Of a stretch of DNA of 31,161 nucleotides, positions 8,366-10,141 are shown in pieces. Source of the stretch: a virus; IMG/VR virus record IMGVR_UViG_3300017971_000622; one strand, 5' to 3'. The translations under genes were made by a program, and so were the position numbers. Position 1 is the first letter of the stretch. Every line of letters begins with the position of its first letter. Under the pieces are notes generated by a model, which was given only the letters and a program-made list of their open reading frames with translations, ran no database searches and was not told where the DNA came from.

Positions 8366-10141
8366 TTATTTTACAGTCCACTTCTCACGAACCTGCTCCA
8401 CGGTCGGAAGCGGGTCTTCCTCAGTCAGGCCCTCAGTCTGCATCAGCATGTCGAAGACCTTCTCACTGAAACCAGCGAGCTGGTTGATGTGTCCGCCCTC
8501 ATCAACCACGGCGTCACCGTAGCCGTCGAGGTGGATGCAGTGCAACCACGTATCCTTTGCCTTTGCAGACGAAGTCAGGTACTCTGCCCACGTGTCGCAG
8601 ACAGCCTTCTGCTCCTCACGACTGGAACCCCAGCCGTGGCCAGCGTAGGAAGCATCGTCCCAGCACTGCATGTCGGAGAGGATAATGACCCTGTCCGGCG
8701 TCAGACCCTTGCTCTTCAGCAAGCGAGGAATCTTGTATGCGTTCGTGTTGTGACCATGCGTGTCCGCACCCTGCACCTTACCAGCAATTCCAAGAACCGT
8801 GCTGTTCTTGGTGAACCCCACCTCGGCGATGTCCGTTCCGAATGCAAAGACGTACGGCTTCTCTGCGGCCTTGGCCACGATACCACACAGTACGTTTGCC
8901 GCATCGGCACAGCTCACGGTAGACCTGTCCGAAAGCTTGGTGCTCGACATCGAACCGGAGTTGTCAGCAAAGATTGCCGTCACGCCCGGCAGGTGGATGT
9001 TCTCGCAAGCGTAGTTGCTTGCCAGCTCAACCGCCGCCGCCAGCTCGTTACGAGCCGCCATGTCCACGTCCGGCACCTCAAGAGCCTTGAGAGCCGAAAG
9101 GAACCTGAACGGCAACTGCTTCGACCTCTGCACAGCCTGCTTGCTGGAGATGAAGTTCGAAACCTTCTGCACGTGCTCATCCGACACGCCAGCCTGAAGA
9201 ACGTTACGCAGGTTCCTGAGCATGGCCATGTAGCCCAGAAGCCTCTCATCAATGAGGAACTCCCACACTTCCTTGGCGTCGCTCTTGAACTGCGAACGCA
9301 GAACCTCCCAGTTGACCATCGAACGCTTTGCCAGCTCCTTGGCCTCGGCATCGAACACGTCACGCTTGGCGAGCTTCTTACGAGCGTAGATAATCGGAGT
9401 CTTACGACCGTCAACCACATCGCCCGTCACAAAGTACTTCGCCACTTCGTCCTTCAGCGGCCAGCCCCTCTTCCTCTTAATCCAGCCGAGAACGTCCTTC
9501 CACGTCGGAAAGTTGGACGAATCGTACTTCATCAGACCACGCTCACCGAATGCGGCCAGCGCATCACCCAGACCCAAGTTCAGGCCGTTAGCCAGAGACT
9601 TGTAGCCGAAAAGGAACCTGTGAATCAACAGGCACGTCTTGACTTCGTCCGGCCTCTTGACAATAACCGGGGCGTACTTACGCACCAGCGACTTCGTGCC
9701 ATCCATCCTCGAAGCAAGCACCAGAAGCACCTGCGGTGTCAGACGAATGTACATGTCGTTACGAAGCCAGTTGGCAATTGCCAACAGGTCTTCGGCGCTC
9801 TCACCCTTGGCCACGTCAACCGCCGTAGCGATAACCTCACGGGCCGTATCGTTCAGCTCCTCGCAGGATGCGAAGTCCTTGAGCTTCTCATCTACGAGCT
9901 TAAGACGCTCCTGCAAGCCCTCCAGCTTGCCGCCCTGACCCCTCGTGGGAATACAGGTATCAGCGTTGTAGAACCTCGGCTCTGCGAAAAACGCACCACC
10001 TGTCATGGTGATGAGCTTCAGGGCCGGGTCACGGATTTCGAACGCCACTCCACCTGCACGGTTGAGCGTTGCGTTCGGCTGGTTGCTCGGCTTACGAGCG
10101 TTCTTATTCTTCTGTCTTGCCGTCTTCTGGAACGTACCCAT
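8366..10141 (-). CDS. rsr: Ro60/Rsr-like RNA-binding protein (TROVE domain + C-terminal vWA with MIDAS DNSGSMSS)
   Basis: ORF 8366..10174. ATG at 10141 has an AGGAGGAGG RBS. N-terminal GGVAFEIRD..ITMTGGAFFAE resembles the Ro60 TROVE module and the C-terminal DxSGS motif is vWA. The antisense 563-aa ORF is rejected. Confidence 0.7.
   Translation of the reverse strand: MGTFQKTARQKNKNARKPSNQPNATLNRAGGVAFEIRDPALKLITMTGGAFFAEPRFYNADTCIPTRGQGGKLEGLQERLKLVDEKLKDFASCEELNDTAREVIATAVDVAKGESAEDLLAIANWLRNDMYIRLTPQVLLVLASRMDGTKSLVRKYAPVIVKRPDEVKTCLLIHRFLFGYKSLANGLNLGLGDALAAFGERGLMKYDSSNFPTWKDVLGWIKRKRGWPLKDEVAKYFVTGDVVDGRKTPIIYARKKLAKRDVFDAEAKELAKRSMVNWEVLRSQFKSDAKEVWEFLIDERLLGYMAMLRNLRNVLQAGVSDEHVQKVSNFISSKQAVQRSKQLPFRFLSALKALEVPDVDMAARNELAAAVELASNYACENIHLPGVTAIFADNSGSMSSTKLSDRSTVSCADAANVLCGIVAKAAEKPYVFAFGTDIAEVGFTKNSTVLGIAGKVQGADTHGHNTNAYKIPRLLKSKGLTPDRVIILSDMQCWDDASYAGHGWGSSREEQKAVCDTWAEYLTSSAKAKDTWLHCIHLDGYGDAVVDEGGHINQLAGFSEKVFDMLMQTEGLTEEDPLPTVEQVREKWTVK

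What the first reader, a model, noticed from the sequence alone, without database searches (positions are those of the whole stretch)
8366..10141. Ro60/Rsr-like TROVE+vWA protein encoded in the same region as MVP, pointing to a vault-like/Ro-like RNP module
TROVE domains are named for Telomerase, Ro and Vault: TEP1 binds vault RNA in vaults and Ro60 binds Y RNAs. This gene has its own operon with a clean terminator at 8316-8348. It also contains an upstream gene, a 300-nt structured element and the phage promoter motif, and sits 1.5 kb from the MVP gene. In bacteria rsr is typically adjacent to its Y RNA (YrlA). The co-localisation of TROVE, MVP and candidate RNAs is the most system-like feature of the window.
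Basis: partly seen in the sequence, partly recalled or inferred. Interest (0 to 1): 0.8.

Follow-up and report, generated by a model that had tools for sequence, protein, structure and literature searches.

The report
Phage Ro60 gene with Y-like RNAs
The gene encodes a phage version of the RNA-binding ring protein Ro60, and its likely partners are a family of small "Y-like" RNAs encoded just upstream; the vault-shell gene (MVP) next door is a recent, non-conserved neighbour.

Summary
Window 8366-10141 (-) is a 591-aa TROVE+vWA protein with its own Shine-Dalgarno sequence and a strong terminator, 1.6 kb from an MVP gene. Profile and fold searches show a full-length Ro60/Rsr ring, not TEP1.

The vault reading fails. 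MVP lies next to this gene only in the window and one close relative (84% identity). It is absent within 10 kb in every other related locus, and no vault RNA is found.

What is conserved is a cassette: tmRNA, Y-like RNA(s), tRNA-Met, Ro60. I found a covarying RNA module (stem P1, an internal loop CUUCAR opposite GAUUWUUG, stem P2, then AUACUUC) with variable inserts, some YrlA-like. Every covariance-model hit lies on the Ro60 strand near the gene.

The window holds two large copies, at 11638-11385 and 17012-16793. The Ro60 mRNA leader carries a permuted half of the module directly in front of its Shine-Dalgarno sequence, which suggests autoregulation (inferred, not shown).

Verdict: a new variant of the known phage Ro60-Y RNA system. 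It is moderately interesting. RNA binding and regulation remain untested.

The parts
8366..10141 (-). Ro60-like gene (TROVE HEAT-repeat ring plus vWA domain with a DxSxS MIDAS motif), 591 aa
   Evidence: (D393, S395, S397, T466 and D490 are invariant).
8312..8348 (-). Intrinsic terminator ending the Ro60 transcript
   Evidence: GGGGCCGTGAG-TTAAT-CTCACGGCCCC followed by TTTTTTG.
10160..10188 (-). Ro60 mRNA leader element: UUG, hairpin GUGGCC/GGCCAC, bulged G, then CUUCAA. It is a circularly permuted half of the Y-like module. The Shine-Dalgarno sequence GGAGGAGG (10155-10148) follows 4 nt later.
11385..11638 (-). Y-like RNA A (254 nt): P1 GAUAC/GUAUC, loop CUUCAG opposite GACCAUUG, P2, then a multi-hairpin insert of about 200 nt
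   Evidence: (z = -3.06). Homologous copies in L006, L008, L027, L033 and L182.
11665..11698 (-). Putative promoter of the Y-A / tRNA-Met unit (TATAAT at 11677-11672)
   Evidence: (GTGTATAAT-like box conserved across loci). Consensus match only.
11287..11363 (-). tRNA-Met (CAU), 21 nt downstream of Y-A. It has initiator-like traits: a U1xU72 mismatch and A11:U24.
   Evidence: The module-to-tRNA-Met spacing of 9-21 nt recurs in at least 12 loci.
11210..11254 (-). Intrinsic terminator after tRNA-Met, closing the RNA-only transcription unit
   Evidence: The stem is conserved, with base changes, in L006, L008, L027 and L033.
16793..17012 (-). Y-like RNA B (220 nt): P1 GGCAC/GUGCC, loop CUUCAG opposite GGUUAUCG, P2, and an insert shared with L006 and L018. 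TATAAT lies at 17030-17025.
15201..15578 (-). tmRNA, a recurrent neighbour of the cassette. A functional link to Ro60 has not been shown.

Best explanation
Window 8366-10141 (-) encodes a Ro60/Rsr-type RNA-binding ring (TROVE HEAT-repeat ring plus a vWA domain) of a large phage.

Its likely partners are a family of Y-RNA-like small RNAs encoded on the same strand. Each has:
- a terminal stem P1 formed by its two ends;
- a conserved asymmetric internal loop, 5' N-CUUCAR opposite 3' GAUUWUUG;
- a second stem P2;
- a conserved (A/U)UACUUC;
- a freely variable insert.

The window has two such RNAs, both with very large inserts: Y-A at 11638-11385 and Y-B at 17012-16793. Y-A appears to be made together with an initiator-like tRNA-Met from its own promoter-to-terminator unit. 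Cleavage at the tRNA 5' end would release it.

Inferred, not shown: the ring protein binds the conserved P1/loop/P2 scaffold, and the variable inserts act as adaptors. These would be tRNA mimics or binding sites for host enzymes such as PNPase, as in known Ro60-Y RNA machines. The complex would redirect RNA surveillance or decay during infection.

Also inferred: the same motif, permuted into a hairpin directly in front of the Shine-Dalgarno sequence of the Ro60 mRNA, lets free protein repress its own translation.

The MVP gene is a lineage-specific insertion between the ACP gene and Y-A. It is not part of the conserved module.
For: Protein:
- Pfam TROVE 1.2e-19.
- The homologue profile hits phiLo Ro60 (9l5y/9kop, 1e-25), human and Xenopus Ro60, and Deinococcus Rsr.
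- AlphaFold pLDDT 87.7. The top 13 Foldseek hits are all Ro60-family proteins, aligned over the full length.
- The MIDAS residues are invariant in 45 homologues.

RNA family:
- In 15 small variants, 91.6% of cells are paired, against 30-47% when partners are slid. 13 of 16 pairs change on both sides. Covariation score 0.736 against 0.227 for shuffles; 0 of 500 shuffles reach it.
- The covariance model gives 40 hits in 525 kb and 45 hits in 960 kb. All 85 lie on the TROVE strand, nearly all within about 3 kb of the gene. There are none in MVP-only loci.
- A strict descriptor gives 30 hits on the TROVE strand and 0 on the opposite strand.
- In the window the descriptor finds exactly two hits, against 0.003 expected.
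- Family members with tRNA-like inserts hit Rfam YrlA at E 3.7e-6 and 3.3e-5.

Cassette order: the module lies 9-21 nt before tRNA-Met, with a tmRNA nearby, in independently fetched loci. Terminators bracket the units.

Leader mimic:
- Present in 14 loci within 60 nt of the start codon, where about 0.08 is expected.
- The helix covaries: 4 of 7 pairs change on both sides.
- Replicated in viral contigs.

Precedent: phage phiLo Ro60 binds two Y-like RNAs encoded upstream of its gene and assembles with host PNPase (PMC12135203). YrlA RNAs lie within 4 kb of Ro60 on the same strand in 254 bacterial species and 22 phages (PMC4201824).
Against: - No binding data exist. The association is by genomic linkage, and nearly all loci were chosen because they carry TROVE.
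- In the one unbiased pattern scan, one of three full modules (L132, in a tRNA cluster) had no TROVE gene within 12 kb.
- The two window RNAs are not found by the covariance model, because their inserts exceed 200 nt. They do not match Rfam YrlA or Y_RNA. Y-B alone is not unusually stable (z = -0.46).
- The published GNCGAA/CGAA Ro-binding motif is not conserved in this family.
- The protein scores 22 bits against a cut-off of 900 for the NCBIfam Rsr equivalog.
- The leader helices were picked by a search that required pairing, so their percentage paired is inflated.
Confidence: 0.72

Rival explanations
1. Vault-like RNP. MVP forms a shell. The TROVE protein plays the role of TEP1 and recruits a small RNA into the shell, so MVP, TROVE and the RNAs act as one functional module.
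For: - MVP (926 aa when intact; Vault_3 and MVP_shoulder) lies 1.6 kb upstream on the same strand.
- Y-A starts right after the MVP stop codon.
- The arrangement is shared by a second phage, L006/L007.
- TEP1 also carries TROVE and vWA domains (bioRxiv 10.64898/2026.05.01.722283).
Against: - MVP is absent near TROVE in L008, L033, L039, L047, L048, L049, L003 and all more distant loci.
- In L039 and L047 the order is ACP, Y-like RNA, tRNA-Met, TROVE, with no MVP. MVP is therefore an insertion.
- MVP-carrying huge phages have no TROVE gene within 20 kb.
- Contig lengths in the two homologue lists overlap only for the window and L007.
- MVP is frameshifted in this window.
- There is no vault RNA hit.
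- The protein lacks the NACHT, WD40 and TIR-like domains. The RNAs are of the YrlA type.
Confidence: 0.05
2. The RNA modules are independent of Ro60. They would be leader or processing elements of the tRNA-Met/tmRNA gene cluster, or sRNAs bound by another phage or host factor such as an RNase. In that case they sit near TROVE only because gene order is inherited within one phage lineage.
For: - Many modules abut tRNA-Met.
- L132 has modules in a tRNA cluster with no TROVE gene in 12 kb.
- L043 has a module 5.7 kb downstream of TROVE, among tRNAs.
- The loci were selected through TROVE.
Against: - Modules also occur directly upstream of TROVE with no tRNA present: L014, L015, L017, L026.
- Their position relative to TROVE shifts between upstream and downstream, yet strand and proximity persist down to 27-35% protein identity.
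- The half-module sits on the Ro60 Shine-Dalgarno sequence itself.
- Some inserts are YrlA-like, and YrlA is a class known to bind Ro60 (PMC4201824).
Confidence: 0.15
3. The leader hairpin is an ordinary mRNA-stabilising 5' hairpin or a processing site. It would not be a mimic of the protein-binding site.
For: 5' hairpins are common. The loose descriptor has a background of about 20 hits per 456 kb of strand.
Against: - The flanking UUG and N-CUUCAR are the same conserved loop strands as in the sRNA modules, in the same geometry: a G-C closing pair and a bulged N.
- Placement 20-29 nt before the ATG recurs in 14 or more loci.
Confidence: 0.25

Closest known systems
Thermus phage phiLo Ro60 with Yrl1/Yrl2 (PMC12135203; PDB 9KOP, 9L5Y)
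   Same: - A phage-encoded Ro60 ring (HEAT repeats plus vWA).
- Two Y-like RNA genes upstream of the protein gene.
- It is the best sequence-profile hit among solved structures (1e-25).
   Different: - Only about 19% identity in the structural alignment.
- phiLo's Y-like RNAs were picked by a CGAA motif, which is not conserved here.
- Here the scaffold has an extra outer stem and the CUUCAR/GAUUWUUG loop, inserts of up to about 250 nt, linkage to tRNA-Met and tmRNA, and a leader mimic.
- None of this is tested biochemically.
Bacterial Rsr with YrlA/YrlB (Salmonella) and the Deinococcus Ro60-Y RNA-PNPase machine (RYPER) (PMC4201824; Rfam RF02553)
   Same: - Y RNAs lie within a few kb of the gene, on the same strand, often in several copies.
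- A terminal stem plus a modular effector domain.
- Relatives of the window RNAs carry the T arm, acceptor-like stem and D arm, and hit the YrlA model.
   Different: - The window's own RNAs have no tRNA-like domain and no Rfam hit.
- All YrlA hits in relatives fall below the gathering score (about 40 bits against 69).
- The protein is far from the Rsr equivalog (22 bits against 900).
- The P1/loop extension lies outside the YrlA model.
Eukaryotic vault (MVP, TEP1, vault RNA)
   Same: An MVP homologue and a TROVE+vWA protein are encoded 1.6 kb apart, with small RNA genes between them.
   Different: - The linkage is not conserved.
- The protein does not have the TEP1 domain architecture.
- There is no vault RNA.
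- MVP is frameshifted in this window.
Autoregulated ribosomal-protein operons, in which the mRNA leader mimics the rRNA binding site (my own knowledge; an analogy only)
   Same: The motif found in the stable RNA partner reappears in the protein's own mRNA, next to the ribosome-binding site.
   Different: This is purely inferred here. To my knowledge, autoregulation by a leader mimic has not been described for any Ro60.

Membership tests
Ro60/Rsr (TROVE ring plus vWA) | TROVE domain recognised by the family HMM | tested here: met
   Pfam PF05731: E 1.2e-19, 71 bits against a cut-off of 23. Only profile positions 279-355 align for the single sequence. The profile of homologues aligns positions 204-564 to solved Ro60 chains.
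Ro60/Rsr (TROVE ring plus vWA) | C-terminal vWA domain with a MIDAS motif (DxSxS...T...D) | tested here: met
   PF25045 is below its cut-off for this protein (21.1 bits against 27.7), but it is recorded for most homologues. D393, S395, S397, T466 and D490 are invariant in 45 sequences. The model shows an alpha/beta domain at residues 384-556.
Ro60/Rsr (TROVE ring plus vWA) | Full-length fold equals the Ro60 ring | tested here: met
   The top 13 Foldseek PDB hits are all Ro60-family proteins (1yvp, 2i91, 9nen, 2nvo, 9kop, 9l5y). About 580 columns are aligned, TM 0.64-0.77, E down to 1.9e-15.
Ro60/Rsr (TROVE ring plus vWA) | Equivalog-level similarity to bacterial Rsr (NCBIfam NF041674) | tested here: not met
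   22 bits against a cut-off of 900. It is a distant phage clade of the family, not an Rsr equivalog.
Ro60/Rsr (TROVE ring plus vWA) | Binds Y RNA or misfolded RNA | not testable with these tools
   Needs EMSA, RIP or CLIP.
Y RNA / YrlA (Rfam RF02553, RF00019) | Encoded near the Ro60 gene on the same strand | tested here: met
   Y-A ends 1.2 kb upstream of the Ro60 start. Y-B ends 6.7 kb upstream, outside the 4-kb rule of PMC4201824. All 85 covariance-model hits in relatives lie on the TROVE strand.
Y RNA / YrlA (Rfam RF02553, RF00019) | 5' and 3' ends pair into a stem that flanks an internal loop | tested here: met
   P1, internal loop and P2, with strong covariation. Both window copies satisfy the descriptor, and P1 appears in their minimum-energy folds.
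Y RNA / YrlA (Rfam RF02553, RF00019) | Reaches the Rfam gathering score | tested here: not met
   No hit in the window at E <= 10. The relatives L026 and L023 score 40.5 and 39.2 bits against 69.
Y RNA / YrlA (Rfam RF02553, RF00019) | tRNA-like T arm and D arm (YrlA) | tested here: not met
   Absent from Y-A and Y-B. Present in family members L023, L026, L043 and L132.
Y RNA / YrlA (Rfam RF02553, RF00019) | GNCGAA(N)G / CGAA motif near the 5' end | tested here: inconclusive
   Y-A reads CAGCGAAGGG, but that stretch is the covarying P2 strand and differs in most members. The conserved elements here are CUUCAR, AUACUUC and GAUUWUUG.
Vault particle (MVP + TEP1 + vault RNA) | MVP gene present | tested here: met
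   MVP_shoulder 3e-21 and Vault_3. The gene is intact at 926 aa in L004 but split by a 1-nt deletion in the window.
Vault particle (MVP + TEP1 + vault RNA) | TROVE protein with TEP1 architecture (TIR-like, NACHT and WD40 domains) | tested here: not met
   591 aa, with TROVE and vWA only.
Vault particle (MVP + TEP1 + vault RNA) | Vault RNA | tested here: not met
   No Rfam Vault match at E <= 10 in 7900-16900.
Vault particle (MVP + TEP1 + vault RNA) | MVP and TROVE co-occur in related genomes | tested here: not met
   They are adjacent only in the window/L004 and L006/L007. MVP is absent within 10 kb in all other relatives. The MVP loci of huge phages lack TROVE within 20 kb. Whole-genome co-occurrence was not fully tested.

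The most novel reading that the evidence does not exclude
In this phage lineage (the window and L006/L007), an MVP gene was acquired and inserted directly upstream of the Y-like RNA / tRNA-Met / Ro60 cassette. The MVP is about 47-50% identical to homologues on contigs labelled Myxococcales. The most novel reading is that this MVP builds a vault-like shell during infection that packages the Ro60-Y-like RNP. That would be a prokaryotic-virus counterpart of the MVP-TEP1-vault RNA particle.
Probability: 0.05. Interest if true: 0.9.

Novelty: new variant of a known kind. Interest (0 to 1): 0.5.

Why it matters
Ro60-Y RNA complexes are conserved from bacteria to humans, where Ro60 is a lupus and Sjogren's autoantigen. 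How Y RNAs are recognised outside animals, and what phages use them for, is still poorly understood.

This locus defines a large environmental phage clade: more than 430 proteins, and 441 viral-contig stretches. In it the Y-like scaffold has a sharply conserved, covarying architecture, and it accepts inserts from about 20 to about 250 nt. That makes the 'Y RNA as modular adaptor' idea directly testable.

The permuted copy of the scaffold on the Ro60 ribosome-binding site predicts a feedback loop. To my knowledge, no such loop has been described for any Ro60.

The work also removes a tempting but unsupported 'bacterial vault' story. The genuine oddity that remains is that intact MVP genes occur in phage genomes.

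Tried and rejected
- Rfam scans of the window, at gathering thresholds and at E <= 10, gave only a tmRNA and a tRNA-Met. There was no Y_RNA, YrlA or Vault hit.
10175-11170 contains a small ORF plus conserved but not unusually stable sequence (z = 0.09). 14850-16354 is mainly the tmRNA.
- A search of the protein alone against PDB sequences found nothing. A profile was needed.
- Megablast of 25 kb of the window against phage records found only a 42-nt tRNA match, so no close cultured relative exists.
- The covariance model R1, with filters off, could not bridge the inserts of more than 200 nt in the window's two RNAs. It scored only their 5' halves, at E 0.19 and 1.9. I therefore relied on an explicit descriptor with strand and random controls, and on homology to copies in other loci.
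- A 15-base pattern scan of IMG/VR returned mostly chance matches: 117 of 120.
- Matching contig lengths between the TROVE and MVP homologue lists, as a proxy for co-occurrence, gave no overlap beyond the window and L007. Only the top 120 of each list are visible.
- The idea that the adjacent tRNA-Met is itself the tRNA-like domain of a YrlA was rejected. It is a complete tRNA scoring 62.7 bits, with an anticodon arm.
- Reading CGAAGG in Y-A as the canonical Ro-binding motif was rejected, because that position covaries across the family.
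Full report
**What is at the coordinates**

Nearly all genes of the 31-kb window run on the minus strand. The ORF 8366..10141 (-) encodes 591 aa. AGGAGGAGG lies 6 nt before the ATG at 10141. A strong intrinsic terminator follows the stop codon: an 11-bp stem at 8348-8322, then TTTTTTG.

Pfam finds TROVE at E 1.2e-19 and a sub-threshold Ro60-type vWA domain. The single sequence finds nothing among solved structures. A profile of 45 homologues does, hitting Thermus phage phiLo Ro60 (1e-25), human and Xenopus Ro60, and Deinococcus Rsr.

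An AlphaFold model (pLDDT 87.7, pTM 0.88) matches Ro60-family structures over its full length. The top 13 hits are all Ro60 proteins, with TM 0.64-0.77. The MIDAS residues DxSxS...T...D are invariant.

This is a Ro60-type ring protein, 591 aa, with no TEP1-type extra domains. It is far from bacterial Rsr: 22 bits against the 900-bit equivalog cut-off.

**Context**

The window is the whole 31,161-nt contig that carries this protein. It looks like part of a large phage. It carries:
- NAMPT and an NMN-adenylyltransferase/NUDIX gene;
- two PAPS-reductase-like genes;
- a tmRNA at 15201-15578 and a tRNA-Met at 11287-11363;
- an acyl-carrier protein.

TROVE genes are common in phages. 111 GenBank phage records carry a match, many annotated 'Ro-like RNA binding protein'. 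441 IMG/VR stretches encode relatives, and more than 430 protein clusters do.

**The MVP neighbour**

11717-13408 (-) carries the MVP shoulder and a vault repeat. 13375-14496 (-) is the N-terminal part of the same protein. A sister contig, L004, is 99.99% identical and has one intact 926-aa ORF. The window lacks a single C at about 13424.

MVP is adjacent to the TROVE gene only here and in L006/L007, whose TROVE protein is 84% identical. Other relatives have the order ACP, small RNA, tRNA-Met, TROVE, or tmRNA, small RNA, tRNA-Met, TROVE, with no MVP. These are L008 and L033 (72%), L047 (71%), L039 (68%), L048 (66%), L049 (62%) and L003 (56%). None of the more distant loci with 10-kb flanks has MVP either.

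The three GenBank huge-phage records that carry MVP have no TROVE gene within 20 kb. MVP homologues number in the thousands. Many sit on contigs labelled Myxococcales, at 47-50% identity. Bacterial MVP homologues were already noted by Daly et al. (PMC3762200).

MVP is therefore a lineage-specific insertion.

**The RNA partners**

Rfam finds no Y or vault RNA in the window. Comparing the non-coding DNA of 40-odd TROVE loci revealed a recurrent module on the TROVE strand. From the 5' end it reads:
- stem P1;
- one bulged nucleotide;
- CUUCAR;
- stem P2, about 8 bp, whose first pair is the R of CUUCAR with a Y;
- (A/U)UACUUC;
- a variable insert;
- P2';
- GAUUWUUG;
- P1'.

On 15 small natural variants, 91.6% of cells pair, against 30-47% when partners are slid. 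13 of 16 pairs show changes on both sides. The covariation score is 0.736 against 0.227 +/- 0.03 in shuffles, and 0 of 500 shuffles reach it.

A covariance model built from these variants gave 40 hits at E <= 1 in 525 kb. In an independent set of 78 viral TROVE loci (960 kb) it gave 45 hits at E <= 0.05. All 85 hits lie on the TROVE strand, nearly all within about 3 kb of the gene. There are none in the MVP-only loci. In TROVE clades at 27-35% identity only the inner part matches (P2 plus AUACUUC). The outer P1/loop thus belongs to the clade at about 42% identity and above.

Inserts range widely:
- hairpins of about 20 nt;
- complete YrlA-type domains with a T arm, an acceptor-like stem and a D arm. 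These hit Rfam YrlA below threshold but significantly: 40.5 bits at E 3.7e-6, and 39.2 bits at E 3.3e-5;
- multi-hairpin domains of 200 nt or more.

**The window's copies**

A strict descriptor finds exactly two matches in the window, both on the minus strand:
- Y-A, 11638-11385, 254 nt;
- Y-B, 17012-16793, 220 nt.

It finds none on the plus strand, 30 against 0 by strand across the loci, and 0.003 per strand in random sequence.

Y-A folds better than shuffles (z = -3.06). Homologues in five loci share P1 and several covarying hairpins. Y-B shares its insert with L006 and L018, but is not unusually stable on its own (z = -0.46). The covariance model cannot span their inserts. Both RNAs are preceded by a TATAAT box.

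Y-A is followed after 21 nt by tRNA-Met and then a terminator at 11254-11219. This looks like an RNA-only transcription unit. A module-to-tRNA-Met spacing of 9-21 nt recurs in at least 12 loci, often with a tmRNA upstream.

The tRNA has a U1xU72 mismatch and A11:U24. From general tRNA knowledge these are initiator-like traits, though only two of the three anticodon-stem G:C pairs are present.

**A copy of the motif on the Ro60 mRNA**

Twenty to 29 nt before the start codon lies UUG, a 5-9-bp hairpin, one bulged nucleotide, then CUUCAR, with the Shine-Dalgarno sequence immediately after. In the window this is 10188-10160, followed by GGAGGAGG at 10155-10148.

These are the P1 and loop strands of the module, joined in permuted order. 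The Shine-Dalgarno sequence occupies the place of the P2 5' strand.

A loose descriptor finds this in 14 loci within 60 nt of the start codon, where about 0.08 is expected from the background rate. It recurs in independent viral contigs. The helix changes sequence while staying paired: 4 of 7 pairs change on both sides, with covariation 0.471 against 0.182. These sequences were selected for pairing, however, so the percentage paired is inflated.

**Mechanism**

Shown:
- The protein has the Ro60 fold.
- A covarying RNA family is tightly linked to the gene in strand and position.
- Some members are of the YrlA type.
- The motif sits on the gene's own ribosome-binding site.

Inferred by analogy with Rsr-YrlA and with phiLo Ro60-Yrl-PNPase (PMC4201824, PMC12135203):
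- The ring binds the conserved scaffold.
- The inserts act as adaptors, either tRNA mimics or docking sites for host nucleases.
- The complex re-targets RNA surveillance or decay during infection.
- RNase P cleavage at tRNA-Met releases Y-A.
- Free protein represses its own translation through the leader mimic.

None of this has been tested biochemically.

**Caveats**

Loci were chosen through TROVE. In an unbiased pattern scan only 3 of 120 matches were true modules. Two of the three lie on contigs with TROVE. One (L132, in a tRNA cluster) shows no TROVE gene within 12 kb.

Weak same-strand matches next to TROVE in the cultured phage CcrColossus and in the archaeal virus HGTV-1 (E 0.02-0.46) hint at a wider family but are not significant alone.

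**Verdict**

This is a phage Ro60 orthologue with a newly delineated family of Y-like RNAs, which makes it a new variant of a known system. The vault interpretation is not supported.

Noticed in passing
window 11717-14496 (-), indel at about 13424: The MVP homologue is split into two ORFs by a single missing C (GCTACAAGC in L004, GCTAAAGC here). The sister contig L004 encodes an intact 926-aa protein. This is either an assembly error or a pseudogene allele. Intact MVP genes also occur in the huge-phage records LR756500, LR756501 and LR756503. Homologues on contigs labelled Myxococcales are 47-50% identical.
   Followed up: partly
window 26538-28920 (-): There is a nicotinamide phosphoribosyltransferase (PHROG E 1.7e-155) followed by an overlapping cytidylyltransferase-NUDIX gene. 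This looks like a phage NAD+ salvage pair.
   Followed up: no
window 23882-25012 and 25422-26435 (-): Two PAPS-reductase-like genes lie in tandem (PHROG 424: 2.4e-15 and 7.2e-33).
   Followed up: no
window 14616-14888 (-), terminator 14613-14585: A stand-alone acyl-carrier protein (PP-binding, 5.6e-8) has its own terminator. It is a conserved neighbour of the RNA cassette in L006, L033, L039 and L047.
   Followed up: no
window 10841-11210 (-): This non-coding stretch lies after the tRNA-Met terminator. It is 74% identical over 233 nt to L027 and is partly conserved in L006 and L008. It begins with GGTTCTTTGACAA. The motif GTTCTTTGA also precedes many Y-like modules by 17-25 nt. The stretch is not more stable than shuffled sequence (z = 0.09). 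Its role is unknown; it could be a long 5' UTR, an sRNA or a promoter-proximal element.
   Followed up: partly
window 11287-11363 (-): The tRNA-Met has a U1xU72 mismatch and A11:U24, which are initiator-like, but only two G:C pairs at the base of the anticodon stem. The same tRNA accompanies the cassette in most related loci.
   Followed up: partly
window 10301-10316 (-): An orphan CGAUUAUUGAUUUUGG sits between the small ORF and the Ro60 leader. It resembles the 3' loop strand of the module, but no matching 5' half was found.
   Followed up: no
L132 1257-1549 (+): An IMG/VR contig carries one small and one YrlA-like module inside a tRNA cluster, with no TROVE gene in the 12 kb fetched. This could be a counter-example to strict Ro60 linkage. 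Alternatively the gene may lie elsewhere on the 24-kb contig.
   Followed up: partly
L052 2171-2231 (+); L051 805-874 and 3765-3829 (+): Weak matches to the inner part of the RNA model lie on the TROVE strand next to the TROVE genes of Caulobacter phage CcrColossus and haloarchaeal virus HGTV-1. One of them lies directly before a tRNA-Asp.
   Followed up: partly
protein P0066 (homologue list): One 871-aa homologue of the Ro60-like protein carries LAGLIDADG and intein-splicing Pfam domains. It appears to be an intein-containing Ro60.
   Followed up: no
L006 3425-3669 (+): The Y-B orthologue in the closest relative appears to carry an extra insertion of about 50 nt immediately after CUUCAG, inside the conserved loop.
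   Followed up: no
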